Positions 3,351 to 18,848 of a DNA stretch of 23,187 bases are shown here, piece by piece. The first letter of the stretch is position 1, and every line of letters starts with the position of its first letter. Source of the DNA: a virus; the UHGV virus genome UHGV-0778869; one strand, written 5' to 3'. Under the pieces are notes generated by a model that saw nothing but the letters and a program-made list of their open reading frames with translations, was not told the origin of the DNA and made no database searches. The position numbers were made by a program, and so were the translations under genes.

Positions 3351-3378
3351 GTTACAAGCTCAGTGATGTAGATGGTCA

Positions 3379-5681: not shown

Positions 5682-5843
5682 TTAACGACGCCCATGTTTC
5701 ACTCCTGCTTTGGCTAGTCTGTAAACACCAACAAGGCGCTCTGCGAACGCCCTGTTATTTGCTGCGGCTACCACTAATCCCTCAGGTGAATCAGGGTGTC
5801 GAATCTCTTCTTTTTCCTGGTATTTCTTACGACGTTTTGTCAT
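5682..5843 (-). CDS. Hypothetical small basic protein (53 aa) between the cII-like and O-like genes
   Basis: ATG 5843-5841 preceded by AGGAG; MTKRRKKYQEKEEIRHPDSPEGLVVAAANNRAFAERLVGVYRLAKAGVKHGRR. Below the ORF-track size cut-off; found by hand. Confidence 0.4.
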   Translation of the reverse strand: MTKRRKKYQEKEEIRHPDSPEGLVVAAANNRAFAERLVGVYRLAKAGVKHGRR

Positions 5844-5877
5844 AATTACTCCTGTGGATTGATCCAGTCTTTCTACA

Positions 5878-6156: not shown

Positions 6157-6189
6157 ATGTAAGTATTTCCTTAACTAATAAGAAGTTAT

Positions 6190-6207
6190 GCGCATCAACT
6201 TATGCGC
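6190..6207 (-). terminator. Candidate tR1-like hairpin downstream of nutR
   Basis: Minus-strand RNA GCGCAU-AAGUUG-AUGCGC followed by AUAACUUCUUAUUAG; T-run imperfect. Confidence 0.35.
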
Positions 6208-6214
6208 GTTGTAT

Positions 6215-6258
6215 TCCCGCATTTCGGCGGGAATGAGGACCATGACTGTTAAAGAGCG
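6215..6258 (-). promoter_or_regulatory. nutR: boxA CGCTCTTTAACA plus boxB hairpin TCCCGC-CGAAAT-GCGGGA
   Basis: Read on minus strand between cro and cII-like; boxA resembles the E. coli rrn boxA; the identical boxA/boxB pair recurs as nutL. Confidence 0.7.
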
Positions 6259-6264
6259 GTGTTA

Positions 6265-6459
6265 CTATTTGTTTTTCTTGTTGCTTGGGAAAGGACGAAC
6301 TTCCTCTCCAATCACACTGCCATCAGGCTTTACCGTAACCATAATGTTACGGCCTGCCAGAATGGCCTTGCTGATAGCGCACTGGATTACACCAAAGTCA
6401 CTGGCTGCTTTAGCCTGTCCATGGATTTTGGCGTAATCGGCAAGTGTCATTCGAATCAT
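6265..6459 (-). CDS. cro: Cro repressor (lambda Cro fold, 64 aa)
   Basis: ATG 6459 with GGAGAG SD; product ...[41 protein letters not shown] parallels lambda Cro. Confidence 0.85.
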
Positions 6460-6488
6460 ATGCACTCTCCGTTATTAACCATGAACAA

Positions 6489-6559
6489 AGAATACTACAG
6501 GTATTCAAAGCAATCAATACTCAGGGTATTTTTAGTTTGAGTACCTTAGCTATTAGAAT
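6489..6559. promoter_or_regulatory. OR region: three 15-bp operators (6491-6505, 6516-6530, 6540-6554) overlapping divergent pR and pRM
   Basis: AATACTACAGGTATT, AATACTCAGGGTATT, AGTACCTTAGCTATT. pR on minus strand: -35 TTGATT (6517-6512), 17-bp spacer, -10 TATTCT (6494-6489). pRM -10 TAGAAT (6554-6559) would start transcription at the cI ATG. Confidence 0.65.
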
Positions 6560-6565
6560 TAAGCT

Positions 6566-7282
6566 ATGGAAAATAAAAAATCACTGACGACAGAACAGCT
6601 CGAAGACGCTAAGCGGCTTAAGGCTTTGTATGAGTCAAAAAAGAAAGAATTGGGAATAACCCAATACTCAATCGCTGATGAACTGGGTATCACCCAAGGA
6701 GCGGTAGGGCATTATCTTAATGGCAGAAACGCGCTAAACGTTGAGGTCGCATCTGGTTTTGCACGTTTGTTGCAAGTCTCAATTGCTGATTTTAGCCAGT
6801 CAATTGCTGCCAAGGTTGCAGAACAGGCAGAAAGCCTTAAGAGCGATGCCAACGTAAGGTATGCAGGGGAATACAGAGCAGGAAAGAGGTATCCGGTGTT
6901 AAGCAGTATCCAGGCTGGCTCGTGGTGTGAAGCATGCGAACCATACACCATTAAAGACATAGATGTTTGGCTTGAGTCTGACGCGCATATTCAAGGTAAT
7001 GCGTTCTGGCTTAAAGTGGAAGGTGATTCAATGACGGCACCGGTTGGGTTAAGCATTCCAGAGGGAACATTCGTTCTTTTCGATACCGGAAGGGAGGCGA
7101 TCAACGGCAGCTTGGTCATAGCAAAACTTTCTGACTCTAACGAAGCAACATTCAAGAAGCTGATAATCGACGGCGGAAATAAATACCTCAAGGGACTTAA
7201 TCCTGCATGGCCTCTCGTGCCAATCAATGGAAACTGCAAGATTATAGGCGTTGCAATTGAGACAAAACTAAGGCTGGTTTGA
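6566..7282 (+). CDS. cI: CI/C2-type prophage repressor (HTH plus S24 LexA-like autopeptidase, 238 aa)
   Basis: N-terminal HTH (ITQYSIADELGITQGAVGHYLNG); Ala-Gly cleavage site (SIQAGSW), catalytic GDSMTAP and FKKL; C-terminal half close to P22 C2 as recalled. Confidence 0.9.
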   Translation: MENKKSLTTEQLEDAKRLKALYESKKKELGITQYSIADELGITQGAVGHYLNGRNALNVEVASGFARLLQVSIADFSQSIAAKVAEQAESLKSDANVRYAGEYRAGKRYPVLSSIQAGSWCEACEPYTIKDIDVWLESDAHIQGNAFWLKVEGDSMTAPVGLSIPEGTFVLFDTGREAINGSLVIAKLSDSNEATFKKLIIDGGNKYLKGLNPAWPLVPINGNCKIIGVAIETKLRLV

Positions 7283-7299
7283 TCACGCAAGGGGCGATT

Positions 7300-7668
7300 A
7301 TGGTTGGAACCGCTATAGCAAGCTTTTTTGGGATGTTGGCAATCTCGACAATTTACGGCTTAGCGCATGCTTTTATTGCGAAATCTCTATCAGAAAAAAT
7401 AAGCCAGGCTTGGGCGCATAGATCAGCTCGTTTCATGATTCTGGTGATCATAGCAATACAAGGGATATCTGCATTTATCCTCTATGGATCAAGCTTATAC
7501 CTATTGTATCAAGGCGCGACATTTACGCCTTACACCAGTGATTACGGAACTCTATACGATGGTAGTGAAGACATCACTGTGGCTTGGATCGTCTTTGGTT
7601 TATCTATGGCCGTGTCTGTTGTAGCAGACATCATTAAGGTAATTATCGTCTTAACCTTCGCTGACTAA
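7300..7668 (+). CDS. Small polytopic membrane protein (about 122 aa) downstream of cI
   Basis: ATG 7300 with AAGGGG SD (alternative ATG 7279 overlaps the cI stop); three to four hydrophobic helices; same strand as cI. Confidence 0.6.
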   Translation: MVGTAIASFFGMLAISTIYGLAHAFIAKSLSEKISQAWAHRSARFMILVIIAIQGISAFILYGSSLYLLYQGATFTPYTSDYGTLYDGSEDITVAWIVFGLSMAVSVVADIIKVIIVLTFAD

Positions 7669-7754
7669 CCTATAATCCCGGCAGCAATAGCTATCGGGAT
7701 CCACTTCACATATCCCGCATAAAAAGCACTGAACAAGCAGACACCGAAAAAATA

Positions 7755-7841
7755 AATATCCTTTGTATTCATTTGCTTATCATTATTTCACCAAAAATAA
7801 ATACCTTGGGTATTTACACAATAAAATACCTACAGTATTCT
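7755..7841 (+). promoter_or_regulatory. OL region: three 15-bp operators (7755-7769, 7800-7814, 7825-7839) overlapping pL
   Basis: AATATCCTTTGTATT, AATACCTTGGGTATT, AATACCTACAGTATT. pL: -35 TTTACA (7813-7818), 17-bp spacer, -10 TATTCT (7836-7841). Confidence 0.6.
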
Positions 7842-7887
7842 TTAGCCATCAGCAGGACGCTGGAAGCCAAACGGAACAGATTGGCAG

Positions 7888-7928
7888 GCTCTTTAACATT
7901 GATGGGATTGTCCCGCCGAAATGCGGGA
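7888..7928 (+). promoter_or_regulatory. nutL: boxA GCTCTTTAACA (7888-7898) plus boxB hairpin TCCCGC-CGAAAT-GCGGGA (7911-7928)
   Basis: Same boxA/boxB as nutR, downstream of pL and upstream of the N-like gene. Confidence 0.7.
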
Positions 7929-8241
7929 ACCAAAGAGTAGTTGGCTTTGGGGTGACGTGAAGTGCAGCTGCACGACGGCAACCGGAAGATAAGCACCCGG
8001 CGCGCCACCGCCAAAGTCAATTCCATAGGCGTTATGCAGCCGCCACCATATTCAAGAAAGCTGCACAAGAGGTAGGAGGATTTATGTGAATACTTACATT
8101 CAATTGAGAGATTAATTAAATAGAACTGATCGAGCAGAGTCCATAAAGGCTCATAAATGCTCTTCCATCCCCGTCTAATTGGCGGGGAAGGAAACAACTT
8201 TGTAATAAAAAAATTCCAAAGTTGTTTCATCGGAGGTCAAC

Positions 8242-8514
8242 ATGACAGTAGTCATTACATATCTGGCTGACGATAACGCCAGAAATCGCCGCAGAGCACG
8301 CAGACAGGCTCAACGTGAACAGGCAATGCAAGAGCAGCGACTGGCGCGAAAAATTGCGCTAAAGCTCTCTGGTTGCGTCAGAGCAGATAAAGCAGCATCA
8401 CTCGGAAGCCTTCGCTGCAAGAAGGCAGATGAATGCAGTGGAAGTATTTGCCTGCCAAACGTAGCCATTTACTCGGCAGGCTACCGGAAATCAAAACAAC
8501 TGACAGCCAGGTAA
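8242..8514 (+). CDS. N-like transcription antiterminator with arginine-rich motif (P22 gp24-like, 90 aa)
   Basis: GGAGG SD; ARM NARNRRRARRQAQREQA near the N-terminus; C-terminal ...YSAGYRKSKQLTAR resembles P22 gp24 as recalled. Confidence 0.8.
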   Translation: MTVVITYLADDNARNRRRARRQAQREQAMQEQRLARKIALKLSGCVRADKAASLGSLRCKKADECSGSICLPNVAIYSAGYRKSKQLTAR

Positions 8515-8517
8515 GTG

Positions 8518-8742
8518 ATGAATCAGACATACATTCCATCATGCTTGAGAAATCTGCCAAAGCAGAAAGCAAAGCCCCGCAAGCAAGCCATAAAGGACGC
8601 TAAGGCAGAGGTTATTGATCAAGCAATACAATTGCTCAGGGAGGAGTTAAGAAGTGGCAAGCTCGAAGGAATGATGATGCCCTATCAGCGCGGATATCTT
8701 TCGGCGATTAGTAAGCTGGAAGTATTGAAGAGTGAATTATGA
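8518..8742 (+). CDS. Hypothetical protein (74 aa)
   Basis: ATG 8518 after AGGTAAG; MNQTYIPSCLRNLPKQKAKPRKQ...; ATGA overlap with the next gene. No family recognised. Confidence 0.5.
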   Translation: MNQTYIPSCLRNLPKQKAKPRKQAIKDAKAEVIDQAIQLLREELRSGKLEGMMMPYQRGYLSAISKLEVLKSEL

Positions 8743-9431
8743 ACTATCTGGAATTTCCGGATGGTTCATTGTTTTGGCAGCAAACCACTTATTTGAGAGG
8801 AATTAATATGTCATCAATCCGCTTAACTACGAGAATGAAAGAGAAAATCGCTCGTAACGCTTTAATTAAGTCTGGGGTTTTCACTGAGCTTGAAGAAGTA
8901 ACAAAGTTAAAGAGCCAGCTTGCACTTGACGCCAGAGTTATTGCGTTTGGCGGTAAAAAGAAAACTGAGGAAGTGGATCAGTTATCATCCAAGTTAGTAG
9001 CTATAAGTGAAGAACTTGAAAAACTGGGATGTTCATTTTACTCATACGATGTTCGTTCTACTTCAATTTATCTGACTGTATCTGGCAGAAGGGTTGGATG
9101 GCTTTCATATGGGGAAGACGGCAACGGCGAAGATATATTGCTCCCTACTCCGACCAAAGATAAATGCATGTTTGACGCAGAACACGAAATAACAAAAAGG
9201 TTTGATGAAATCTGCGCATTGCAACAAAAACTTGAAGCCAAGAAAAAGGATATCGAATCAAATGTATGGGCTGCTTTGAACTCAGTCACAACAGTTAAGC
9301 GACTTATTGAAGTTTGGTCTGAAAGCAAAGAATTGCTACCAAAAGAAGCAGATAAAGCAAGTACAGCACTTCCTGCTTTACGGGTAGAAGATTTGAATAA
9401 GATGATTGGACTTCCTTCCGAGGCCGCATAG
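8739..9431 (+). CDS. Hypothetical protein (230 aa; alternative start 8808)
   Basis: ORF with coupled start; internal ATG 8808 has a GAGAGG SD; stop lies inside the terminator hairpin. No family recognised. Confidence 0.55.
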   Translation: MNYLEFPDGSLFWQQTTYLRGINMSSIRLTTRMKEKIARNALIKSGVFTELEEVTKLKSQLALDARVIAFGGKKKTEEVDQLSSKLVAISEELEKLGCSFYSYDVRSTSIYLTVSGRRVGWLSYGEDGNGEDILLPTPTKDKCMFDAEHEITKRFDEICALQQKLEAKKKDIESNVWAALNSVTTVKRLIEVWSESKELLPKEADKASTALPALRVEDLNKMIGLPSEAA

Positions 9432-9448
9432 TCGGCCTTTATTTTTGG
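9421..9448 (+). terminator. Intrinsic terminator
   Basis: Stem AGGCCG (9421-9426) / CGGCCT (9433-9438), loop CATAGT, then TTATTTTTGG. Confidence 0.7.
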
Positions 9449-9565
9449 CACTAACAACAGAATAAACACAGCACTGTGTATTCATTCCAACGAGTGAATA
9501 CACGGAGCAATGTCGCTCGTAACTAAACAGGAGCCGACTTGTTCTGATTATTGGAAATCTTCTTT

Positions 9566-9594
9566 GCCCTCCAGTGTGAGGGCAATTTTTTTTG
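9566..9594 (+). terminator. Intrinsic terminator immediately upstream of the next gene's RBS
   Basis: Stem GCCCTC / GAGGGC with loop CAGTGT, then AATTTTTTTTG; GGAGG SD follows at 9597. Confidence 0.7.
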
Positions 9595-9605
9595 ATGGAG
9601 GATAT

Positions 9606-10574
9606 ATGAGTGAAGTAACAGATTTAGTTGTTATTGAAAAAGCAAATGCAATGACTGTATTTCAGTCTGCCGACCAGATTGAAGAAATCCTTCAAAAGGT
9701 TGAACGTGAAGTTATGTCCTTTGTGCCTGATATCACAACGGCAAAGGGCAGAAAGGAGATCGCTTCTCTGGCGTATAAAGTTGCGCAGACGAAAACATAT
9801 CTCGATGGTCTTGGCAAAGACCTTGTTGCTGAACTGAAGGAAATTCCAAAGCTAATTGATGCCAACCGCAAGACAGTGCGTGATCGCCTTGATGAGCTGA
9901 AAGCCAAGGCGCGCCAGCCTCTTACTGATTATGAGGAGGAACAGGCACGGATTAAAGCCGAAGAAGAAGCTAAGGCAGCAGCTGAAGCTCTCGCAAAGCA
10001 AATTGAGTCTGACCATGAAATAGCGATTTTGATGGATCGCGAATTTGACCGCCAAAGAGAAGAGGCAAGACTCAAAGCGGAGCAGGAAAAGCGAGAGCAT
10101 GAAGAACGCTTAAAAAGAGAAGCTGAAGAGAAAGCCAGAGCAGAAGCCGAAGCAAAGGCAAAAGCCGAAATTGAAGCAGCAGCAAGGCGAGAAGCAGAAG
10201 CTAAGGCCGCAGCGGAACGTGCAGAGCGTGAACGTATTGAAGCCGAGCAACGAGCACAGCGCGAAGCAAAAGAGGCAGCAGAACGAGCTGAAAGAGAAAA
10301 GCAGGCGGCAATTGAAGCAGAACGCCGAAAAGCACAGGAGGAGGCTGAACGAATCCGGCGCGAGGCTGAAGCAAAAGAGCAAGCAAGAATAGCAGAAGAA
10401 AAAAGAATCAAGGACGAAGAAGAGCGTAGAGCAAAGGATAAAGCTCACCGGAAAGAAGTAAATAACAAAATACTTGCTGACCTTATCAAGGTTGGCGCAT
10501 CAGAAGATGTTGCTAAAAATATCATAACAGCCATCGTAAAAGGCGAAGTATTCGCAACAAAAATAACCTACTAA
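9606..10574 (+). CDS. Hypothetical protein (322 aa): N-terminal globular domain, long Glu/Ala/Lys/Arg-rich coiled-coil, short C-terminal domain
   Basis: ATG 9606 with GGAGG SD; the low-complexity centre (EAEAKAKAEIEAAARREAEAK...) generates several spurious antisense ORFs; sits upstream of the Sak4-like gene. Confidence 0.7.
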   Translation: MSEVTDLVVIEKANAMTVFQSADQIEEILQKVEREVMSFVPDITTAKGRKEIASLAYKVAQTKTYLDGLGKDLVAELKEIPKLIDANRKTVRDRLDELKAKARQPLTDYEEEQARIKAEEEAKAAAEALAKQIESDHEIAILMDREFDRQREEARLKAEQEKREHEERLKREAEEKARAEAEAKAKAEIEAAARREAEAKAAAERAERERIEAEQRAQREAKEAAERAEREKQAAIEAERRKAQEEAERIRREAEAKEQARIAEEKRIKDEEERRAKDKAHRKEVNNKILADLIKVGASEDVAKNIITAIVKGEVFATKITY

Positions 10575-10598
10575 TAAAACCAACATAAGGAACCACCC

Positions 10599-10745
10599 AT
10601 GATTTACGCAATCGCGGGAGGCGCTCGCATGGGTGCCTTCCAACTAAATGAATCTTTACTTGAACGAATCACCCGTAAATTACGTGACGGATGGAAACGA
10701 CTCATCGACGTACTTAATCAGCCAGGAGTTCCAAAAAATGGATAA
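10599..10745 (+). CDS. Hypothetical small protein (48 aa)
   Basis: ATG 10599 with AAGGA SD 7 nt upstream; MIYAIAGGARMGAFQLNESLLERITRKLRDGWKRLIDVLNQPGVPKNG. Below ORF-track cut-off; found by hand. Confidence 0.4.
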   Translation: MIYAIAGGARMGAFQLNESLLERITRKLRDGWKRLIDVLNQPGVPKNG

Positions 10746-10851
10746 AACACTTATGGCTATCCAGACTAAATTCACTATCGCCGCTTTTATTGGCGATGAA
10801 AAGATGTTTCGTGAGGCCGTCGAAGCCTACAGAAAATGGAGGTCAAAATGA
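10738..10851 (+). CDS. Hypothetical small protein (37 aa)
   Basis: ATG 10738 overlaps the previous ORF end; MDKTLMAIQTKFTIAAFIGDEKMFREAVEAYRKWRSK; the upstream extension of this frame (10648) overlaps the 48-aa ORF. Confidence 0.4.
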   Translation: MDKTLMAIQTKFTIAAFIGDEKMFREAVEAYRKWRSK

Positions 10852-11036
10852 TTCCGGTAGAACTGGCGAAAACTCCAGAGTTAAGTCGATTAAAAAGAGA
10901 ATATCACATTGCTGAGGCTCGTTACTGGCGTAAAGCGGGAGATAAATCAAAGAAACAACTTTGCTTATGGCAGGCACAAAGAGAGCGCATGAATGAGCGT
11001 GAGTTTCTTTCCTCCCCATCCGAATTACCATTCTGA
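10848..11036 (+). CDS. Hypothetical small protein (62 aa)
   Basis: ATG 10848 with GGAGG SD and ATGA overlap with the previous ORF; MIPVELAKTPELSRLKREYHIAEARYWRKAGDKSKKQL... Confidence 0.5.
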   Translation: MIPVELAKTPELSRLKREYHIAEARYWRKAGDKSKKQLCLWQAQRERMNEREFLSSPSELPF

Positions 11037-11044
11037 GGCAAATT

Positions 11045-11746
11045 ATGGGAACTGCGACATTAATACTCGGTGAATCTGGCACCGGAAAATCAACCAGCAT
11101 GAGAAATATCAATCCAGAGGAAGCAATACTTATAAAACCAATAGGCAAGCAGCTTCCATTTAAATCAAAAGACTGGCTGGCATGGGATGCCAGAGCAAAA
11201 AAAGGAACCGTAGTTACCACTGACAAATGGGACGTAATAGTTGCCGTAATTAAGCGTGCTCACGAATACGGGAAAAGAATCGTTATTGTTGATGACTTCC
11301 AGTATGTGATGAGCAATGAGTTTATGCGCCGCTCAGAAGAAAAATCGTTTGATAAATTCACTGAGATAGGCCGCCACGCATGGGAGGTGATTAAGGCTGC
11401 ACAGGATGCACCTGATGACCTGAGAGTCTATTTTCTTGCGCACACCGAAGAAACCCCTATGGGGCGTGTGAAAATGAAGACTATCGGCAAAATGCTGGAC
11501 GAGAAAATCACTGTCGAAGGCATGTTTACTATAGTTCTTCGCACCCTTACCCGCGATGACCAGTTCTTTTTCACCACGAAAACAACGGTGCAGACACTGT
11601 TAAATCCCCAATGGGAATGTTTGATTCTAATGAGATTGATAACGATCTCTCTTTCGTCGATGCCACTGTTTGTGATTACTACGGCATCAATAATGTTCAT
11701 CAAATTAAGGAAAACGCCGCATGAGCAACGTGATTTTTACTTATAA
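11045..11746 (+). CDS. Sak4-like RecA-fold ATPase (AAA_24-type), probably frameshifted near 11560-11590; intact-frame end would be 11724
   Basis: Walker A GESGTGKST, Walker B IVIVDDF. After ...DQFFFTTK the in-frame tail looks non-protein-like, while the -1 frame reads NNGADTVKSPMGMFDSNEIDNDLSFVDATVCDYYGINNVHQIKENAA and ends in a stop that overlaps the next ATG. Confidence 0.7.
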   Translation: MGTATLILGESGTGKSTSMRNINPEEAILIKPIGKQLPFKSKDWLAWDARAKKGTVVTTDKWDVIVAVIKRAHEYGKRIVIVDDFQYVMSNEFMRRSEEKSFDKFTEIGRHAWEVIKAAQDAPDDLRVYFLAHTEETPMGRVKMKTIGKMLDEKITVEGMFTIVLRTLTRDDQFFFTTKTTVQTLLNPQWECLILMRLITISLSSMPLFVITTASIMFIKLRKTPHEQRDFYL

Positions 11747-12308
11747 CGAAGAAGCAGCACTGACCGCAGGGCAAGGTGGTTTTATTAACGAAACTGGTGC
11801 TCATATCATTACCATTACTGAAGCAGAACTAAAGCAATCAGAAAAAGGAGCCAAATTTATTGAGTTTTCTGGCGAATCTGACGACGGACGTAAAATCCAA
11901 TATCTTAGCGTCTGTGTTCAGAAAAATGACGGAACGGAAAACAAATTTGGCGCAAATGTCGTTCACGCCATGATGGGGTGTGCCGGGATTGGACAATTAA
12001 CGCAACATATGGTTTCCGCCAGTAAATTTGTTGCTCCTGAGTTTCATGGAAAGAAAATCGGGTTAGTGCTCCAGAAAGTATTAACCACAAACAAAAAGAC
12101 TGGCGCAGACAGCTACCAGATGGAAATACGCATCCCGTTTATTGCACAAACAGGTCAAACCCTTAAAGAAAAGGCGGAAGGCAAGCAACCAGAAACTATC
12201 GCCAACATGGTTGCCAGCCTCAAAGATAAAGACAATCGCTCTAAAAACGTAAGCCAGAATCATGCAGATGATTATGGTTACAGCCAGAACGATTACCCTC
12301 CTTTCTGA
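11721..12308 (+). CDS. Putative ssDNA-binding partner of the Sak4-like ATPase (195 aa)
   Basis: Immediately downstream of the ATPase; acidic C-terminal tail ending ...DDYGYSQNDYPPF, reminiscent of SSB tips (E. coli SSB ends DDDIPF). OB fold not verifiable by eye. Confidence 0.5.
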   Translation: MSNVIFTYNEEAALTAGQGGFINETGAHIITITEAELKQSEKGAKFIEFSGESDDGRKIQYLSVCVQKNDGTENKFGANVVHAMMGCAGIGQLTQHMVSASKFVAPEFHGKKIGLVLQKVLTTNKKTGADSYQMEIRIPFIAQTGQTLKEKAEGKQPETIANMVASLKDKDNRSKNVSQNHADDYGYSQNDYPPF

Positions 12309-12331
12309 TTATTGAAAATAAGGCTCCCATT

Positions 12332-12628
12332 ATGCCAGCGCCTCTGTATGGTGCGGATGACCCGCGCAATTGCTCCGGTAGCTCCAAGGCGGAGGTGCTG
12401 GAAAATATCAAAAACAATTTCGACGCGTTTCTTGCTCTGACACCAGAAACAAAAGCAGAACGGATGTACCGACGCGATATACAACTCGCGCTAAAACAGG
12501 AGAAGGACCGAACAAACGAAACAGCAATGAGACCGTTGCGAAAAGCGACAATAGACAAATTCCCTGAATATATCGACCCGCGCCTGCGTAATTACCGATC
12601 ACGCTATGGCGCTATCAGTAATGACTGA
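12332..12628 (+). CDS. Hypothetical protein (98 aa)
   Basis: ORF with weak AAGG SD; [34 protein letters not shown]...; no family recognised. Confidence 0.45.
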
Positions 12629-12638
12629 GGAATTTACC

Positions 12639-12803
12639 ATGAGAGGACTTGCATACAATCCCGGCATTCTTCAGGCAGAAATGATTATTCGCCAACGCGT
12701 AAAGCCAATGCCATCGAGAGAGGAATTACTTAAGAGAAATAGTTTCGGTTCTGTTAATGACAACAAATATCTGAATGCGATGTGGCGGAGTGGGAAGAAA
12801 TGA
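12639..12803 (+). CDS. Hypothetical small protein (54 aa)
   Basis: ATG 12639 with GAGGA SD 8 nt upstream; [34 protein letters not shown]... Confidence 0.45.
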
Positions 12804-13231
12804 AACAAATGTCACTAATTGAGATGGATGGATTTCTGAAAGGTAAATGCATCCCACGAGATTTAAAGGTTAACGAAACAAACGCTGAATATCTGGTGCG
12901 TAAGTTCGGTGAACTTGAATCAAAACTAGAAACGGCGTTGCGGGAGTGTCGTTCTGCTGGAATCACGATTGATAACCTTGAGGCTAAATGCGCGAAGATG
13001 GCTGCTGAAAATACCTCACTTAAGCAATCTGAGAAGGAATTTAATGACTTTTGTCGTGAGGAGTTTAGCGAATGGGAAGATGATGTTACTGAAACCCCAG
13101 CCACCGATGCTTTTCTGGCTGAAGTACGGGCGCAGGGGGTAGAGATGTTTGCTGACCATCTGTTGTGCCCAGACCTTGATGACACTATCCGTGACTTTGC
13201 TTCCCAGCTTCGCAAAGGAGGCAACCAATGA
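12800..13231 (+). CDS. Hypothetical acidic protein (143 aa)
   Basis: ATG 12800 overlapping the previous stop (ATGA), GGAG SD; predicted helical/coiled-coil. Confidence 0.55.
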
Positions 13232-13845
13232 GCGAGATTGACTATCAGGCATTGCGTGCTAAGGCAGAAAAAGCAACGTGTGGCGAGTGGTCGCTCGAAT
13301 ATGGAGAGGGCCGATTTGATGGTGATGATGCGCTAATTCATCGCGAGGCTGCTGGATATCTTCCCATTTGCAGAATTGAAGGAGCGCATCCTGAAAGCGG
13401 TTTCGATGAAGATTTCCAAATGGAACAGCAGGCCAATGCTGAATTCATCGCCGCAGCCAATCCGGCTACCGTCTTGGCGCTGCTTGGCGAGCTGGAAGCA
13501 GCAGAGAACAACCTTATTGATAGTGAATGCCATGTTGCTGAACTGGAAGAAGCGCTACGCGATAAGCAGGCGTTACTTGAAGCATCAGAAAAGCGCATAG
13601 CAGAACTGGAAGCCGAACTCGTAAGCCAAACTTACAAGTTGAACGAGCTATCGGGCAACTCTCCGGTAACTCCGGATGGTTGGGTTGTAGTGCCGAAGGA
13701 GTTAACACCGGAAATGATGAGAGCCGTTCAGATTAGAAGTGAGCTTGGAGGGTATGCCACTTCCAATCTATCTGGTGCATACAATATGTTTTCTGAGTTC
13801 TGGAATGTTGCTGTCTCAGCTGCGCCTAAGGTGGATGATTTATGA
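13228..13845 (+). CDS. Ead/Ea22-like protein (205 aa)
   Basis: Strong AAAGGAGG SD; N-terminus [22 protein letters not shown]... and central coiled coil resemble the Ead/Ea22-like family of lambdoid prophages as recalled. Confidence 0.55.
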   Translation: MSEIDYQALRAKAEKATCGEWSLEYGEGRFDGDDALIHREAAGYLPICRIEGAHPESGFDEDFQMEQQANAEFIAAANPATVLALLGELEAAENNLIDSECHVAELEEALRDKQALLEASEKRIAELEAELVSQTYKLNELSGNSPVTPDGWVVVPKELTPEMMRAVQIRSELGGYATSNLSGAYNMFSEFWNVAVSAAPKVDDL

Positions 13846-13991
13846 ATCTATATCGCTGCCCATTCTGTGGTTCCACTGTGCTTAACATCGGATACTCATT
13901 CAGTATCAGAGGGAAAATGCGCTATGTGTCATGCAAATGTGGTGCCCAAGGACCAGAAAAACGAACTAGATCTGAAGCGATTTCTTCATGA
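13842..13991 (+). CDS. Small zinc-ribbon protein, Lar-like (restriction alleviation family) candidate (49 aa)
   Basis: MNLYRCPFCGSTVLNIGYSFSIRGKMRYVSCKCGAQGPEKRTRSEAISS; CPFCG...CKCG motif; ATGA overlap with the upstream gene. Found by hand. Confidence 0.45.
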   Translation: MNLYRCPFCGSTVLNIGYSFSIRGKMRYVSCKCGAQGPEKRTRSEAISS

Positions 13992-14000
13992 AATAGTCGA

Positions 14001-14138
14001 ATGAAAGTATGGGTTTATGATCCAGAAACAATATTAAACGTTGAAGAGCGCAGGAGAACAGAAGTCTATATTCATAACCTTAATGAAGATGGATTTACAC
14101 CAGTGCTCGTAAAGGCTACTCCGCAGGAGGTGAAGTGA
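14001..14138 (+). CDS. Hypothetical small protein (45 aa), weakly supported
   Basis: ATG 14001, no clear SD; MKVWVYDPETILNVEERRRTEVYIHNLNEDGFTPVLVKATPQEVK. Confidence 0.25.
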   Translation: MKVWVYDPETILNVEERRRTEVYIHNLNEDGFTPVLVKATPQEVK

Positions 14139-14416
14139 TGGACTCCTTCGCGAAATATACGATTATTGACTGGATAGCATTCCTTCAGGTTTTGCTCATC
14201 TGGTTTTATATGGCTTACAGGAGTGGACAGTGGATTGTCAGTGTAGCCTGTAGCAGGGGATGGCGTTGGTGGAACCGAAAGAATAAAAAAGCACTGGCAT
14301 TGGATTCGTTTTACGAAGCATTCAATCTTAACAGTCTTCAGCCTGGTTCTGTCATTGTAGTCACCACTCAAAGCGGCATGACCATTCAGATTCATAAACC
14401 AAAAGAGGAAAAATGA
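14138..14416 (+). CDS. Small membrane protein (92 aa) with one N-terminal transmembrane helix
   Basis: ATG 14138 with AGGAGG SD; hydrophobic IIDWIAFLQVLLIWFYMAY then basic stretch RGWRWWNRKNKK. Confidence 0.55.
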   Translation: MDSFAKYTIIDWIAFLQVLLIWFYMAYRSGQWIVSVACSRGWRWWNRKNKKALALDSFYEAFNLNSLQPGSVIVVTTQSGMTIQIHKPKEEK

Positions 14417-14502
14417 TGTGGCCTATATGTGTTAATTGCGGACGGATGTGCCTATCTGGATGGTGCCGAAAGTGCGACAAATGCACGAAGAAAAGACAAT
14501 AA
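14413..14502 (+). CDS. Cys-rich mini-protein (29 aa), zinc-ribbon-like
   Basis: AGAGGA SD; MMWPICVNCGRMCLSGWCRKCDKCTKKRQ; start overlaps the upstream stop. Confidence 0.3.
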   Translation: MMWPICVNCGRMCLSGWCRKCDKCTKKRQ

Positions 14503-14536
14503 CAATCCTCGCACTCGCGGGGATTTCTTTTATCTG

Positions 14537-14563
14537 AACTCGCTAGGGCGAGTTTTGTTTTAT
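14537..14563 (+). terminator. Intrinsic terminator
   Basis: Stem AACTCGC / GCGAGTT with loop TAGG, then TTGTTTTAT; the next gene's SD follows. Confidence 0.7.
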
Positions 14564-14574
14564 GGAGACAAGAA

Positions 14575-14919
14575 ATGTCAGATTTGGCTATGAAGGTTTT
14601 GAAATGGCAATCGACTGGCGATGTTGGCATTAGTAGCGCAACTCTTGCCTCAATCGCATGTGGACTGGAAAAGAATATCTATGGTCATCACTTCGGCGCT
14701 CCCCATGACGCAGCAGACTTCCGGCGATGCGTTGCACTTGTTGAGCAGATTCCAGAAATCAGAGATTCATTCGACAAGGTTGCAAAGCGCGTTCCGGCAT
14801 TCAAAGGCATCCTCACCGAATGGGATTCCCTCGTTGCTCTGTTGAAGTCTGAAATGAAGATACACCGAAACAAAGCACCAGAGACTTACAGAAGAATTAG
14901 CGAGTTACGCAAGGACTAA
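14575..14919 (+). CDS. Hypothetical protein (114 aa)
   Basis: ATG 14575 with GGAGA SD; MSDLAMKVLKWQSTGDVGISSATLASIACGLEKNIYGHHFGAPHDAADFRR...; no family recognised. Confidence 0.55.
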   Translation: MSDLAMKVLKWQSTGDVGISSATLASIACGLEKNIYGHHFGAPHDAADFRRCVALVEQIPEIRDSFDKVAKRVPAFKGILTEWDSLVALLKSEMKIHRNKAPETYRRISELRKD

Positions 14920-14977
14920 CCACAGCCTAACACTCGATGAGGCCAGTTCATTTCTCAAGATATCCAGACATACCATC

Positions 14978-15001
14978 GCCGCATCAATGCGGCTTTTTCT
15001 T
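14978..15001 (+). terminator. Intrinsic terminator upstream of xis
   Basis: Stem GCCGCA / TGCGGC with loop TCAA, then TTTTTCTT. Confidence 0.6.
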
Positions 15002-15013
15002 GCGTGTAATTGC
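15000..15013 (+). promoter_or_regulatory. Candidate pI CII-binding site TTGC-N6-TTGC (TTGCGTGTAATTGC)
   Basis: Same motif as at pRE; sits just 5' of the xis ATG so that a dependent transcript would start inside xis, as for lambda pI. Confidence 0.6.
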
Positions 15014-15025
15014 GGAGACTTTGCG

Positions 15026-15244
15026 ATGTACTTGACACTTCAGGAGTGGAACGCTCGCCAGCGACGCCCAAGAAGCCTTGAAACAGTTCGTCGATGGGTG
15101 CGCGAGTGCAGGATATTCCCTCCTCCGGTTAAGGATGGAAGAGAGTATCTGTTCCACGAATCAGCGGTAAAGGTTGACTTAAATCGACCAGTAACAGGTA
15201 GCCTTTTGAAGAGGATCAGAAATGGGAAGAAGGCGAAGTCATGA
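15026..15244 (+). CDS. xis: Excisionase Xis (72 aa)
   Basis: MYLTLQEWNARQRRPRSLETVRRWVRECRIFPPPVKDGREYLFHESAVKVDLNRPVTGSLLKRIRNGKKAKS matches lambda Xis as recalled; overlaps int by 23 nt. Confidence 0.95.
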   Translation: MYLTLQEWNARQRRPRSLETVRRWVRECRIFPPPVKDGREYLFHESAVKVDLNRPVTGSLLKRIRNGKKAKS

Positions 15245-16292
15245 GCGCCGGGATTTACCCCCTAACCTTTATATAAGAAACAATGGATATTACTGCTACA
15301 GGGACCCAAGGACGGGTAAAGAGTTTGGATTAGGCAGAGACAGGAGGATAGCAATCACTGAAGCTATACAGGCCAACATTGAGTTATTTTCAGGACACAA
15401 ACACAAGCCTCTGACAGCGAGAATCAACAGTGATAATTCTGTTACGTTACATTCATGGCTTGATCGCTACGAAAAAATACTCGCCAGCAGAGGAATCAAG
15501 CAGAAGACACTCATAAATTACATGAGCAAAATTAAAGCAATAAGGAGGGGTCTGCCTGATGCTCCACTTGAAGACATCACCACAAAAGAAATTGCGGCAA
15601 TGCTCAATGGATATATAGACGATGGCAAGGCGGCGTCAGCCAAGTTAATCAGATCAACACTGAGCGATGCATTCCGAGAGGCAATAGCTGAAGGCCATAT
15701 AACAACAAACCCGGTCGCTGCCACTCGCGCAGCAAAATCAGAGGTAAGGAGATCAAGGCTTACGGCTGACGAATACCTGAAAATTTATCAAGCAGCAGAA
15801 TCATCACCATGTTGGCTCAGACTTGCAATGGAACTGGCTGTTGTTACCGGGCAGCGAGTTGGTGATTTATGCGAAATGAAGTGGTCTGATATCGTAGATG
15901 GATATCTTTATGTCGAGCAAAGCAAAACAGGCGTAAAAATTGCCATCCCAACAGCATTGCATGTTGATGCCCTCGGGATATCAATGAAGGAAACACTTGA
16001 TAAATGCAAAGAGATTCTTGGCGGAGAAACCATAATTGCATCTACTCGTCGTGAACCGCTTTCATCCGGCACAGTATCAAGGTATTTTATGCGCGCACGA
16101 AAAGCATCAGGTCTTTCCTTCGAAGGGGATCCGCCTACCTTTCACGAGTTGCGCAGTTTGTCTGCAAGACTCTATGAGAAGCAGATAAGCGATAAGTTTG
16201 CTCAACATCTTCTCGGGCATAAGTCGGACACCATGGCATCACAGTATCGTGATGACAGAGGCAGGGAGTGGGACAAAATTGAAATCAAATAA
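15222..16292 (+). CDS. int: Tyrosine integrase, lambda Int type (356 aa)
   Basis: MGRRRSHERRDLPPNLYIRNNGYYCYRDPRTGKEFGLGRDRRIAITEA... ...HELRSLSARLYEKQ...LLGHKSDTMASQYRDD: essentially lambda Int as recalled, with the R-H-R-Y catalytic region. Confidence 0.95.
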   Translation: MGRRRSHERRDLPPNLYIRNNGYYCYRDPRTGKEFGLGRDRRIAITEAIQANIELFSGHKHKPLTARINSDNSVTLHSWLDRYEKILASRGIKQKTLINYMSKIKAIRRGLPDAPLEDITTKEIAAMLNGYIDDGKAASAKLIRSTLSDAFREAIAEGHITTNPVAATRAAKSEVRRSRLTADEYLKIYQAAESSPCWLRLAMELAVVTGQRVGDLCEMKWSDIVDGYLYVEQSKTGVKIAIPTALHVDALGISMKETLDKCKEILGGETIIASTRREPLSSGTVSRYFMRARKASGLSFEGDPPTFHELRSLSARLYEKQISDKFAQHLLGHKSDTMASQYRDDRGREWDKIEIK

Positions 16293-16540
16293 TGATTTTA
16301 TTTTGACTGATAGTGACCTGTTCGTTGCAACAAATTGATAAGCAATGCTTTTTTATAATGCCAACTTAGTATAAAAAAGCTGAACGTGAAACATTAAAAA
16401 TCATTAATATCAATGCATTACAATATCTTTAGTCTAAAAAATAGACTACATAATGCGACAAAACACAACATATCCAGTCACTATGAATCAACCACTTAGA
16501 TGGTATTAGTGACCTGTAACAGAGCATTAGCGCAAGGTGA
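16293..16540. other. attP: P' arm, 15-bp core (16366-16380, reverse complement of GCTTTTTTATACTAA) and P arm
   Basis: P' arm and core match lambda attP as recalled; the P arm (16476-16525) is similar to lambda's but diverged. Confidence 0.85.
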
Positions 16541-16543
16541 TTT

Positions 16544-16584
16544 TTGTCTTCTTGCGCTAATTTTTTGTCAACATACTGGGTTAT
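16544..16584 (+). terminator. sib / tI-like hairpin terminator downstream of attP
   Basis: Stem TTAGCGCAAG / CTTGCGCTAA (10 bp), 14-nt loop, then TTTTTTG; matches the lambda sib/tI region as recalled. Confidence 0.75.
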
Positions 16585-16781
16585 CTGAATTTACAACCAT
16601 GCTCAGTATCTCGATAAGCGCAGAGAAATGATGCAGTGGTGGGCGGACTGGCTTGATGAAAAGGTGGAGTGATCCACCTTTACCATTATCGAAGAGAACA
16701 AAGCCTTGCAAGCCAATGCAAAGCTTTGTGTGTCCCGTTTTTGTCTCAACATAGCCTTAGATATAGACAACGCAATCACTT

Positions 16782-18848
16782 TTATTGGAATGAAATACTG
16801 CACTCCATTTCAGTTGGTGACCCTGTATTGCTGTACGTTACAATAGTCCATGAGGTTGCAGATACCTTGTTTACGACCATGTATCTCCCAGTTCCTGGTG
16901 ACGTAAATGTATATCCTGCAGTCGACATGTCTGTCGGAAATGTTATCACCCAAACACCAGGTGATGTTTTGGATGCTAAGCATCCAACTGCTGATAACAG
17001 AACTCCTGAGCTATTTATATTTACAACACATGGTGAGTTTATAATCTTAACAACACCTGTATCAAGTATGTATGTATCAAACACTTTACCTATTCTGTTG
17101 CCATTTAGGTATGTAACTGCTGTTGCTGACAATCCAGCCCTGTTCCTTAAAACAGTTGAAACTCCAAGCCCTGAGCAATTAGTTACTTGCTGATCTGATA
17201 CCATTCCTGAAGTTGAACTAAATTGCTCCATAATTGCATCAACGGTATTTGACCCATTAAAGCAGTTGAATGAAACGTTCTCTAACTTATTCCTTCTCAC
17301 TGACTTTCCTGAGTCAGATCTAACGTTGCAGATTCTGTTGTACTGCCCTGGAGTGTTTATTTGTACAAATCCACCTCTTATCTTGTTGTCAAGACAGTCT
17401 GTTAATGATTCGCTATGGTCGTATAAATCATACGCTCTTTTAAAATCACCATTATTATTCATGAAGATTAAAACATCTTCTATGAGATTGTTACTACAAC
17501 CTTGAATAGCTATCACGCTATCATTACCATTAAAAGCACCATTTGCGATACTGGTAAATTTACCGCCAACAATCTTGCAGTTAGTGCATCCGCGTGAGAA
17601 CTTAATGTTATTGTTACCACCTATAGCGCCATCGACATTCCCAAGAACTGATGAATTATGAATTCCTTCACAGTTTATGAACTGAAAATCAGTAGTAGGA
17701 AATCCAATACCGTCAGCAGAAGTAGCATGATAATTAACAAGCAGCCCGTTTTCTGCGTATCCTCCCTGAACAAACCCACCCTTAACTCCAAGTATCTCCA
17801 TGTTACCACCGGCCTTAGATTGTCCTATAAACCTTGGCATGGTTATCTCAGGGTCAATAGCGCCGATAACGACAAAGTTACCATGGTTAGCTCCCTTATG
17901 ACCGGTTCCATCAAAGGTGCATCTAATGGCCCTTATCTTTGATCGTCTAGTTGAATCAGCAGATCCGTAAGAAGTATTTCCCATTCTTAATGGCGTCACA
18001 TCTGAATCACCATTGAAATACAGATCTCTTACTTCTATATTATTCCCTGTTAATTCTATTGCACCAAAGCTCTTATTAAACAATGATCCTGTCAAAGTTA
18101 TTCTAGCCTGATTGATGGCTAATATTTTTTTATTGTCAAGGCTTGATATTACGTTATTTGTTATTTTTACATTTATATCTATGTAAATCTCATCAAAATA
18201 TATTAACAACATACTGATTAGTGATGTTATATCACTGTCAGGTGATGTCCAGTCGCTAATTTTTGTGCTTCTAGACCGTGTTCTTTTTTCAAGATAACAA
18301 GTTACCCCGCCAATCACTGCGGAGTTTTGACTCAATGACGATATTGTTCCGCTTGCTGGAGGTGATATATAAAATAATCCAAATTCAGTGTGAATATCTG
18401 TTGTACCAACAGGAATAATATCTCCAACCTTTGCCGTAGCTCTTACATCATTAGGGAATACAACCCCTGGCAATATTTCGTCACGCATTTCATTGACGTA
18501 TACTCTTAACTGGTCAGGGTCATACTTCAACACATTAGGAAAATAGAACTGCTGCGCACCATATGCATCATAAACAGCCATCGAATGACCTTGCACGGTA
18601 ACGAATTTGGCAATCTGTCCGTTATATACCGGGTAACCAGCAGCGTTAATGATGATTGGTTGCGAAACAGGAACGTGAGAACCGTCTTCGTTCTCCACAT
18701 AAACCTGAATCTGGTTTTCAGGATTTACCGGATCCGTGTCAATTTTACCGATATAAATTTTGCCATTGGCTACGGCTTTAAAAGAACGAGCCATAGTGAA
18801 GAGTTGCGAAGGCATGCTTACCACAACATTTGCGGTGATATCTGACAT
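16782..18848 (-). CDS. Tailspike protein: P22-type N-terminal head-binding domain fused to a distinct beta-helix receptor-binding domain (about 688 aa)
   Basis: ATG 18848 with GGAG SD; N-terminus [43 protein letters not shown]...NVLKYDPDQ parallels P22 gp9 residues 1-110; the rest is Gly/Asn-rich repeats typical of right-handed beta-helix depolymerases and unlike P22 gp9. Confidence 0.85.

What the first reader, a model, noticed from the sequence alone, without database searches (positions are those of the whole stretch)
9421..15001. Four intrinsic terminators inside the pL operon, two placed directly against downstream RBSs
Hairpin plus T-run terminators at 9421-9448, 9566-9594, 14537-14563 and 14978-15001 lie between co-oriented genes. 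Expression of the recombination and xis/int modules would therefore depend on N-mediated antitermination, and the terminators partition the operon into modules that look like independently acquired cassettes. A 9-bp inverted repeat (9476-9484 / 9495-9503) sits between the first two terminators.
Basis: seen in the sequence. Interest (0 to 1): 0.35.

Follow-up and report, generated by a model that had tools for sequence, protein, structure and literature searches.

The report
Lambda-type pL terminators plus PreS sRNA
The hairpin-plus-T-run sites are real, but they are copies of terminators already named in phages lambda, 434 and HK620, and the second one, with the inverted repeat before it, is the known small RNA PreS, so the finding is ordinary biology.

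Summary
All four hairpin+T-run sites and the inverted repeat are at the stated coordinates, on the sense strand of a lambdoid early-left (pL) operon: HK620-type cI, pL, nutL and N, ending in lambda xis-int-attP-tI/sib.

Three of the four sit on short islands 92-98% identical to lambda, flanked by genes lambda lacks.
- 9564-9593 is lambda tL2a. It is the 3' end of the published Hfq-dependent sRNA PreS/LPR1 (window 9505-9592, 2 mismatches in 88, seed identical).
- The "9-bp repeat" is a 14-bp stem (dG -21.7) that ends exactly at PreS +1.
- 14978-15001 is the site annotated t'I in phage 434. It lies directly upstream of the cII site of promoter pI.
- 14537-14563 is the second hairpin of a tandem pair.
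- 9420-9447 is a variable, lineage-specific hairpin, degenerate in lambda.

Every gap longer than 25 nt between N and int holds such a site. Homology breakpoints against other phages concentrate there, so the "cassette" idea holds, but it is known lambdoid mosaicism. Dependence on N is the textbook inference and was not tested; int also has pI.

Novelty: already known. One small new point is that two unrelated hairpins occupy the same place before PreS.

The parts
7813..7841 (+). pL-like promoter (TTTACA, 17-nt spacer, TATTCT), flanked by AATACC..GGTATT operator repeats
   Evidence: Promoter scan. Sequence read. This stretch is 98% identical to the HK620 region annotated OL/pL.
7887..7928 (+). 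nutL: boxA-like GCTCTTTAACA (7888-7898) and a boxB-like hairpin (7911-7928)
   Evidence: Position-for-position equivalent of the HK620 feature 'nutL; putative N-utilization leftward' (L005 5085-5126). Window 7700-8021 matches L005 4898-5219 at 98.1%. Fold.
8242..8514 (+). N antitermination protein (90 aa)
   Evidence: Pfam PF25694 N_peptide 1.6e-15; phrog_271 'anti-termination protein N-like' 5.8e-34.
8739..8777 (+). T0: 14-bp hairpin + UGUUUUGG in the 65-nt gap between orf75 and the Nmad5 gene.
   Evidence: dG -20.3, z -5.2. Homology to other phages breaks at about 8776 and 8797, just after its T-run.
9420..9447 (+). T1: 7-bp hairpin GAGGCCG/CGGCCTT + UAUUUUUGG. The TAG stop codon of the Nmad5 gene lies in the loop.
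   Evidence: dG -11.0. A terminator-like hairpin ends 64-69 nt before PreS +1 in 53 of 113 IMG/VR loci, in several sequence types including one compensatory pair change. HK022 and 434 carry an unrelated hairpin there. Lambda's version is degenerate.
9471..9508 (+). Long hairpin (core stem 9474-9487 / 9492-9505). Its 3' arm ends at PreS +1.
   Evidence: dG -21.7, z -7.3. Present in 107 of 113 PreS loci and replaced by an unrelated hairpin at the same place in 6. The same replacement occurs in APC_JM3.2 and E. coli 162.2.
9505..9592 (+). PreS (LPR1) small RNA. Seed region about 9540-9556. Terminator tL2a: stem 9564-9571 / 9578-9585 and U8 at 9586-9593.
   Evidence: 93.8% identity to lambda 34087-33911. 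2 mismatches in 88 nt against lambda PreS. The 5' end GAGCAATGTCGCTCG and the seed-deletion borders come from the preprint's primers. The preprint equates the 3' end with tL2a. HK620 annotates 'tL2A' at the same place.
14504..14533 (+). tL4 homologue: 9-bp hairpin + UCUUUUAU, starting 1 nt after the TAA stop of the 29-aa ORF.
   Evidence: dG -13.1, z -4.8. It aligns with the feature 'terminator t-L4' of phage 434 record M60848 and with lambda 29361-29283.
14536..14563 (+). Second hairpin of the tandem pair + UUGUUUUAU, followed by GGAG and ATG at 14575.
   Evidence: dG -10.1. Directly adjacent to the tL4 hairpin in 96 of 117 IMG/VR loci and separated from it by 0.5-1 kb in 5. HK106 has a queuine tRNA-ribosyltransferase gene between the two hairpins.
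14978..15001 (+). t'I homologue: hairpin GCCGCA/TGCGGC + UUUUUCUU.
   Evidence: dG -10.5. It aligns with 'terminator t'-I' of M60848. Lambda has GCCGCC/GGCGGT at the same place, so the stem is kept through a change on both sides. Homology to lambda, JEP4 and HK629 starts exactly at 14978.
15000..15013 (+). cII-binding site TTGC-N6-TTGC of the integration promoter pI, abutting the t'I T-run
   Evidence: Sequence read, identical to lambda. The same motif is annotated in mEp235 and HK629.
15026..16292 (+). Lambda-type xis (15026-15244) and int (15222-16292), the distal genes of the operon
   Evidence: Pfam PF07825 3.9e-41 for Xis. 96.6-97.8% DNA identity to lambda 29126-27528.
16526..16567 (+). 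tI/sib hairpin and T-run beyond an intact attP
   Evidence: Within the 14978-16576 match to lambda. Sequence. Fold -24.3 kcal/mol.

Best explanation
The window carries the early-left (pL) operon of a mosaic lambdoid phage. It has the usual set of intrinsic terminators placed in the few intergenic gaps.

Proposed mechanism:
- RNA polymerase that starts at pL without N stops at these sites.
- Polymerase modified at nutL by N and the host Nus factors reads through to the recombination genes, xis and int, and past tI into sib.

The individual sites:
- tL2a has a second, documented role. It forms the Hfq-binding 3' end of the small RNA PreS (9505-9592). In lambda, PreS raises host dnaN translation and helps phage DNA replication.
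- The long hairpin just upstream marks the PreS 5' end. PreS is most likely cut out of the pL transcript there rather than made from its own promoter.
- t'I shields xis-int from unmodified upstream transcription, so that during establishment of lysogeny int is driven by the cII-dependent pI just downstream.
- The terminator-bearing gaps are conserved linkers. Recombination between lambdoid phages has joined different gene cassettes at these linkers.

Shown here: sequence, structure, homology, placement and breakpoint distribution.
Inferred: termination efficiency, N-dependence, PreS expression and PreS processing in this phage.
For: Operon identity.

Homology islands to lambda at 9428-9605, 14499-14577 and from 14978 onward, flanked by genes lambda lacks.

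Named equivalents:
- HK620 tL2A.
- Phage 434 t-L4 and t'-I.

PreS:
- The preprint 10.1101/2024.10.31.621285 places LPR1/PreS between ral and ea10, with its 3' end at tL2a.
- It reports bands of about 88 and 68 nt, lytic-cycle expression and compensatory-mutation proof of pairing with dnaN.
- Its primers fix the 5' end and the seed.
- The window differs from lambda PreS at 2 of 88 positions, both in the terminator 3' arm and tail.
- The review PMC12197685 lists PreS.

Structure conservation:
- The t'I stem is kept through a change on both sides, window/434 versus lambda.
- T1 shows a compensatory variant, and unrelated hairpins occur at the same position.
- Two unrelated hairpins abut PreS +1.

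Placement: all gaps longer than 25 nt between N and int are occupied, with a 6:0 strand bias among the strong sites.

Mosaic linkers:
- 36 of 94 homology endpoints fall in 5.8% of the operon length, using loci not chosen through these segments.
- At least 10 different upstream gene ends and at least 5 different downstream gene starts flank the tL4 pair.

No sigma-70-like promoter lies between T1 and PreS +1.
Against: - No transcript data exist for this phage, so termination and readthrough are inferred.
- Each short hairpin alone is only 2-3 sd better than shuffles. T1 is weakest (z -1.8), and it is absent or degenerate in lambda and in 60 of 113 PreS loci.
- If N-modified polymerase ignores tL2a, the way the PreS 3' end forms is unclear. 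It could be residual termination or trimming back to the hairpin.
- The promoter scan covers only consensus-like sigma-70 sites.
- The loci compared are related to each other. Several were picked through these very segments, and conserved islands contribute two endpoints each. The breakpoint statistic therefore overstates independence.
Confidence: 0.85

Rival explanations
1. The T1-hairpin-PreS-T2 interval is an autonomous small-RNA gene with its own promoter. T1 insulates it from upstream transcription, and T2 is simply its terminator. The two sites would then say little about N-dependent control of downstream genes.
For: - A terminator-like hairpin recurs just upstream of the PreS unit in several unrelated sequence forms. 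This is what insulation of a separate transcription unit would select for.
- The stretch between T1 and the hairpin is conserved.
- TTGGCA (5 of 6 matches to the -35 consensus) lies at 9445-9450.
Against: - No promoter-like site was found between 9440 and 9505.
- No acceptable -10 element lies at a workable distance from TTGGCA or from +1 (read).
- T1 is missing in 60 of 113 loci and degenerate in lambda, where PreS is nevertheless made.
- PreS appears only in the lytic cycle, from 10 min after induction, as expected for a pL product.
Confidence: 0.1
2. The hairpins act mainly as RNA 3'-end stabilisers or processing barriers, or merely as conserved recombination linkers at the DNA level. Transcription stop sites would not be their main role.
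For: - Homology breakpoints concentrate at their edges.
- The CUS-3 record labels comparable intergenic stretches 'boundary sequence'.
- The long hairpin at 9471-9508 has no T-run and cannot be a terminator.
- A paper on phage L states that the roles of intra-operon terminators are not known (PMC8022706).
Against: - Each of the six sites has the T-run that termination needs and mere stabilisation does not.
- All six are on the sense strand.
- Stems are kept through compensatory changes, which points to selection on RNA structure rather than on DNA identity.
- The tL2a sequence is reported as a termination site of the lambda early-left operon.
- The roles are not exclusive of one another.
Confidence: 0.1
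3. The hairpin+T-run matches are chance products of an AT-rich phage sequence.
For: The simple scan finds about 11 such matches in shuffled sequence of this length. Individual z-scores are modest.
Against: - The sites occupy every sizeable intergenic gap.
- All the strong ones are on the sense strand.
- They are conserved at 92-98% in hundreds of phage records, next to unrelated genes.
- Three are annotated terminators in relatives.
Confidence: 0.02

Closest known systems
Lambda tL2a terminator / PreS (LPR1) Hfq-dependent small RNA, located between ral and ea10
   Same: - Window 9428-9605 is 93.8% identical to lambda 34087-33911.
- The PreS body and seed are identical to lambda's.
- The terminator hairpin and the upstream 14-bp hairpin are the same.
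- The position in the pL operon, upstream of cIII, is the same.
   Different: - Both flanking genes differ: an Nmad5-family gene and a 322-aa coiled-coil 'TolA-like' gene, instead of ral and ea10.
- The U-run is longer (8 against 6), and one stem pair is U-A instead of U-G.
- A good hairpin (T1) precedes the unit here, whereas lambda's is degenerate.
- Expression and function were not tested in this phage.
Terminators t-L4 and t'-I of phage 434 (GenBank M60848), with their lambda counterparts at 29361-29283 and 29126-29103
   Same: - Same sequences, in the same order: tL4 pair, ORF114, t'I, pI cII site, xis, int.
- Window 14550-16399 is 97.6% identical to phage 434.
   Different: - ORF55 of 434 and lambda is absent here, so the tL4 pair abuts ORF114 directly.
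- The upstream gene is a 29-aa Cys-rich ORF, rather than ea8.5 in lambda.
HK620 pL operon as annotated in AF335538 (tL1, tL2A-D, tL3). The related phage CUS-3 (CP000711) annotates 'boundary sequences'.
   Same: - Same immunity region, pL, nutL and N (98%).
- Same cIII-kil-Sak4-abc2 block (94.6%).
- Same tL2A.
   Different: - The HK620 tL1 site lies in genes that are absent here.
- The window positions matching HK620's tL2C, tL2D and tL3 fall inside coding sequence and show no convincing hairpin+T-run.
- The window has an extra 205 bp between nutL and N.
Lambda N/nut processive antitermination of the early operons
   Same: N protein family, a nutL with boxA and a boxB-like hairpin just downstream of pL, and a series of terminators before the distal genes.
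   Different: N is of the short HK620/H-19B/21 type rather than lambda's. The boxB sequence differs from lambda's. Function was not tested.
DicF small RNA of the Qin cryptic prophage (from my own knowledge, not checked here)
   Same: A small RNA lying inside a lambdoid early-left-type operon, released from the polycistronic transcript by processing, with a hairpin 3' end.
   Different: No sequence relationship. Different targets (ftsZ against dnaN).

Membership tests
Intrinsic (Rho-independent) terminator | G+C-rich hairpin immediately followed by a U-rich tract on the transcribed strand | tested here: met
   All six sites (T0, T1, tL2a, tL4, its partner, t'I) have stems of 6-14 bp with at least 4-5 G-C pairs and at least 5 T in the next 8-10 nt, on the + strand. 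T0 has an A+U-rich stem and an interrupted T-run and is the least typical.
Intrinsic (Rho-independent) terminator | Located downstream of, or between, genes in the direction of transcription | tested here: met
   All six lie in the four intergenic gaps longer than 25 nt between N and int.
Intrinsic (Rho-independent) terminator | Causes transcript release in vitro or in vivo | not testable with these tools
   Only indirect evidence. The lambda tL2a sequence is reported as a termination site and forms the PreS 3' end. tL4 and t'I are annotated as terminators in M60848.
PreS/LPR1 small RNA of lambda | Sequence similarity to lambda LPR1. The preprint's criterion is at least 92% identity and no more than 3 gaps. 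| tested here: met
   2 mismatches in 88 nt and no gaps.
PreS/LPR1 small RNA of lambda | Seed region that pairs with dnaN and alaS is intact (the bases changed in mutants M1 and M2, and the seed deletion) | tested here: met
   Window 9540-9559 is identical to the lambda sequence in primers P838/P839, P888/P889 and P970/P971.
PreS/LPR1 small RNA of lambda | Hfq-type 3' end: terminator hairpin plus poly-U | tested here: met
   Stem of 8 bp and a U8 tail.
PreS/LPR1 small RNA of lambda | Expressed in the lytic cycle, bound by Hfq, and raises dnaN translation | not testable with these tools
   Shown for lambda only.
N-antiterminated lambdoid early-left operon | N-family protein encoded just downstream of pL | tested here: met
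   PF25694 at 57.8 bits against a cut-off of 27.9; phrog_271.
N-antiterminated lambdoid early-left operon | nut site (boxA plus boxB hairpin) between pL and N | tested here: met
   GCTCTTTAACA at 7888-7898 and a hairpin at 7911-7928, equivalent to the annotated nutL of HK620. That annotation itself says 'putative'.
N-antiterminated lambdoid early-left operon | Distal gene expression requires N | not testable with these tools
   Inference from lambda. int additionally has the cII-dependent pI at 15000-15013 onward.
Rfam-curated RNA family | Match at the gathering score to any Rfam 15 model | tested here: not met
   No match anywhere in the window. No Rfam 15 model matched the PreS region.

The most novel reading that the evidence does not exclude
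The PreS unit may be a self-contained mobile cassette with a fixed architecture: (optional terminator) - hairpin - small RNA - terminator.

- The hairpin abutting PreS +1 would be an obligatory biogenesis element. It could be a processing signal that sets the 5' end, or a 3' cap for the upstream mRNA.
- This is suggested because two unrelated sequences form a hairpin at exactly that place, and homology between phages can begin precisely at +1.
- Likewise, the tL4 tandem pair would act as a preferred slot where single genes are inserted between two terminators, as in HK106.

Neither point is made in the parts of the PreS preprint or in the database records consulted here.
Probability: 0.3. Interest if true: 0.35.

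Novelty: already known. Interest (0 to 1): 0.12.

Why it matters
It matters little as a discovery. Terminators inside the pL operon that N overrides are the classic lambda paradigm. The specific sites are already named in lambda, 434 and HK620, and the PreS small RNA was described in 2024.

The practical value is for annotation:
- This phage carries an intact PreS gene, and the intergenic stretch at 9432-9605 should not be left blank.
- The tL4 pair and t'I can be labelled.
- The data give a clean example of conserved regulatory linkers that join unrelated gene cassettes in lambdoid phages.

The observation that two unrelated hairpins sit immediately 5' of PreS gives a cheap, testable handle on how this small RNA is cut out of the operon transcript.

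Tried and rejected
- **Rfam 15 at gathering thresholds on the whole window.** No match, so no curated family covers PreS or the hairpins.
- **A promoter for PreS between T1 and +1.** The scan found none. By eye, TTGGCA at 9445-9450 has no usable -10 element. Rejected as the main reading.
The aligned lambda sequence folds no better than shuffles (dG -6, z +0.45). T1 is therefore not a conserved lambda site.
- **HK620's annotated tL2C, tL2D and tL3 mapped onto the window** (about 10777-10797, 10951-10968 and 12733-12745). They lie inside genes with weak or no hairpins and no T-run, so I did not count them.
- **The extra 205 bp at 8022-8226 as a mobile element.** It is single-copy in 134 of 5426 E. 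coli genomes and occurs in one phage record, CUS-3. It is not a multicopy repeat.
- **A host junction to the right of int.** Instead there is an intact attP and tI/sib. The window is phage DNA throughout.
- **Literature searches for tL1-tL4 and for module boundaries.** They returned nothing useful. The Casjens & Hendrix lambda review was not held. The names tL4 and t'I therefore rest on GenBank feature tables, not on papers I could read.
- **Formal covariation counts on the two hairpin types before PreS.** Not run, because the two stems are out of register by 1-2 nt and are better described as analogous than as alignable.

Full report
**What the window is**

The + strand from about 6566 to 16570 is the immunity and early-left region of a lambdoid phage.
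- cI is at 6566-7282. A pL-like promoter at 7813-7841 sits among AATACC..GGTATT operator repeats.
- A nutL at 7887-7928 is position-for-position equivalent to the one annotated in HK620. Window 7700-8021 matches HK620 at 98.1%.
- N is a short N protein at 8242-8514 (PF25694, 1.6e-15; phrog_271).
- Then follow an Nmad5-family gene, a 322-aa coiled-coil gene, cIII (PF02061), kil, a Sak4-like ATPase/DUF669/abc2 recombination block, ead/Ea22-like genes, DUF4752, a 29-aa ORF and ORF114.
- The operon ends with lambda xis (PF07825) and int.
- Beyond int lie an intact lambda-type attP and the tI/sib hairpin. This is phage DNA in circular or virion order, not a prophage-host junction.

**The observation**

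- Fold energies are -10 to -13 kcal/mol, 2-3 sd below shuffles. The first site is weaker (z -1.8).
- The scan finds 20 terminator-like matches in 5500-17000, against 10.9 +/- 3.5 in shuffles. All six matches with at least 5 G-C pairs are on the + strand.
It becomes intergenic once the Nmad5 gene is started at ATG 8808, like its 207-aa homologues.
- With these two added, every gap longer than 25 nt between N and int holds at least one such site: 8743-8807, 9432-9605, 14503-14574 and 14920-15025. Together the gaps are about 5% of the span.
- The "9-bp" repeat is a 14-bp stem with two extra outer pairs (dG -21.7, z -7.3).

**What the sites are**

A blastn comparison with lambda gives only short islands inside this otherwise non-lambda gene set:

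| Window | Lambda | Identity | Lambda context |
|---|---|---|---|
| 9428-9605 | 34087-33911 | 93.8% | ral-ea10 spacer |
| 10650-10840 | 33418-33228 | 93.7% | cIII/kil |
| 14499-14577 | 29361-29283 | 92.4% | between ea8.5 and ORF55 |
| 14978-16576 | 29126-27528 | 96.6% | xis, int, attP, tI |

*Second site: tL2a and PreS.*
- It is lambda tL2a. HK620's record labels the same sequence "tL2A".
- The preprint 10.1101/2024.10.31.621285 states that the 3' end of the Hfq-dependent small RNA LPR1/PreS, encoded between ral and ea10, corresponds to tL2a.
- The preprint's primers put PreS +1 at GAGCAATGTCGCTCG, which is window 9505. They delimit the seed at window positions about 9540-9556.
- The window differs from lambda PreS at 2 of 88 positions, both in the terminator 3' arm and tail.
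- In lambda, PreS appears as bands of about 88 and 68 nt. It is made in the lytic cycle, pairs with dnaN (shown by compensatory mutations), raises dnaN translation and aids phage DNA replication.

*Third site: partner of tL4.*
- It is the second hairpin of a pair.
- The first hairpin (14504-14533) aligns with the feature "terminator t-L4" of phage 434 record M60848.

*Fourth site: t'I.*
- It aligns with "terminator t'-I" of the same record.
- It is followed at once by TTGC-N6-TTGC (15000-15013), the cII site of promoter pI that mEp235 and HK629 annotate.

*First site: T1.*
- It has no good lambda counterpart. The aligned lambda sequence folds at -6 kcal/mol (z +0.45).

**Evidence that the structures are under selection**

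- **t'I.** Window and 434 have GCCGCA/TGCGGC, whereas lambda has GCCGCC/GGCGGT. One pair changes on both sides and one changes G-C to G-U.
- **tL4 and its partner.** They differ between phages by wobble-to-Watson-Crick changes.
- **T1.**
  - Among 113 IMG/VR loci that contain PreS, 53 have a terminator-like hairpin ending 64-69 nt before PreS +1.
  - These come in several forms. One pair is compensatory (AGGCCG/CGGCCT against AGGACG/CGTCCT).
  - HK022 and 434 carry an unrelated hairpin plus T-run at that place (AACCCGC..GCGGGTT).
- **PreS.**
  - The body at 9505-9571 is invariant in 13 of the 15 complete copies among the 16 phage loci checked.
  - In these copies, variation is confined to the terminator loop, the last stem pairs and the tail.
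- **The hairpin before PreS.**
  - 107 of 113 loci have the GTGTATTCATTC..GAGTGAATACAC stem.
  - 6 have an unrelated stem (ATAGCAGATT..GAGTCTGCTAT, -13 to -16 kcal/mol) ending 1-2 nt before +1. APC_JM3.2 and an E. coli prophage have it too.
  - In these phages, homology to the window begins exactly at 9505.
  - Replacement by a different palindrome argues for an RNA-structure role rather than a protein-binding site.
  - No sigma-70-like promoter is detectable between T1 and +1.
  - I therefore infer that PreS is cut from the pL transcript at the base of this hairpin. This step is an inference.

**The "cassette" claim**

I compared window 7700-16400 with 15 phage or prophage loci by blastn.
- 64 of 167 alignment endpoints between N and int fall in the four terminator gaps, which are 5.8% of the length.
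- Using only the 8 loci that were not chosen through these segments, the count is 36 of 94. Only 13 of 94 fall near the 15 other gene junctions.
- Islands typically start at 9470 or 9505 and end at 9589-9591 (the end of the T-run) or 9605 (the base before the ATG).
- The tL4 island runs from 14498 to 14538, 14555, 14568 or 14577.
- Lambda-type xis homology starts at 14978.
- In 117 IMG/VR loci the tL4 hairpin follows at least 10 different gene ends. Its partner is adjacent in 96 loci, lies 0.5-1 kb away in 5, and precedes at least 5 different gene starts.
- HK106 has a queuine tRNA-ribosyltransferase gene between the two hairpins.

The terminator-bearing gaps therefore behave as conserved linkers between exchangeable cassettes. 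This is the familiar mosaicism of lambdoid phages. CUS-3's record even annotates "boundary sequences".

Caveats: the loci are related to each other, and each conserved island contributes two endpoints. The statistic is descriptive, not a probability.

**Mechanism and its limits**

The best reading is the lambda paradigm (established knowledge of N/nut antitermination, plus the homologies above).
- Unmodified polymerase from pL stops at T0, T1, tL2a, the tL4 pair or t'I.
- N-modified polymerase reads through to the recombination genes, xis, int and past tI into sib.
- tL2a also makes the PreS 3' end.
- t'I keeps unmodified transcripts out of xis-int, so that pI can drive int alone.

None of this was measured for this phage. 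How the PreS 3' end forms while N is active is open. A paper on phage L notes that the roles of intra-operon terminators "are not known" and offers the same two ideas: partial termination, or a block to non-antiterminated transcription (PMC8022706).

**Verdict**

Its main gaps are the missed PreS locus, the missed tL4 and T0 sites, and pI as an N-independent route to int.

Everything essential is already known, so interest is low. The only mildly new point is the structural, not sequence, conservation of a hairpin directly 5' of PreS, together with the recurrent re-creation of a terminator upstream of it.

Noticed in passing
window 8022-8226: An extra 205 bp lies between nutL and the N start, compared with HK620, JEP4 and an E. 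coli prophage, where window 8021 and 8227 are contiguous. The only phage record that shares it is CUS-3, inside a feature called 'bsq5; boundary sequence'. It is single-copy in 134 of 5426 E. coli genomes. Its effect on the N leader is unknown.
   Followed up: partly
window ~11581 (gene 11045-11746): The Sak4-like ATPase gene has a 1-nt shorter A-run than HK620 hkaL. This shifts the frame for the last 45 or so codons and makes the ORF overlap the DUF669 gene by 26 nt. It is either a pseudogene or a sequencing error.
   Followed up: partly
window 13654-13683: A 30-nt stretch inside the ead/Ea22-like gene is 97-100% identical in at least 8 otherwise divergent phages, forming an isolated homology island. 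It sits in a predicted local hairpin. Its meaning is unknown.
   Followed up: no
window 14413-14502: A 29-aa Cys-rich ORF (MMWPICVNCGRMCLSGWCRKCDKCTKKRQ, two CxxC pairs) overlaps the DUF4752 gene's stop and ends 1 nt before tL4. HK106 annotates the same ORF (gp30). It has no Pfam or PHROG family.
   Followed up: no
L013 (Stx2a phage Stx2_131033) ~6548-7856; L014 (HK022) 2438-3494: In an Stx2a-converting phage, PreS is split within its seed by a 1.3-kb insertion that begins TGAACCGCCCCGGG (IS629-like, from memory). In HK022, the annotated IS903 splits the hairpin just upstream of PreS.
   Followed up: partly
window 5880-5920 (+): A strong hairpin and T-run lie on the + strand inside the 3' end of the minus-strand cII gene. 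This is the position and orientation of the oop antisense RNA terminator, which HK629 annotates at the equivalent place.
   Followed up: no
window 16340-16570: The window has an intact lambda-type attP (core about 16363-16377, with both arms) followed by the tI/sib hairpin at 16526-16567. The window therefore comes from a non-integrated phage genome or a circular permutation. The large minus-strand ORFs to the right (704 and 665 aa) have no NCBIfam match.
   Followed up: partly
L006 (HK106) 10615-11428: A queuine tRNA-ribosyltransferase gene sits exactly between the two hairpins of the tL4 pair, with a short duplication of the spacer on both sides. Five IMG/VR loci show a similar 0.5-1 kb insert.
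   Followed up: partly
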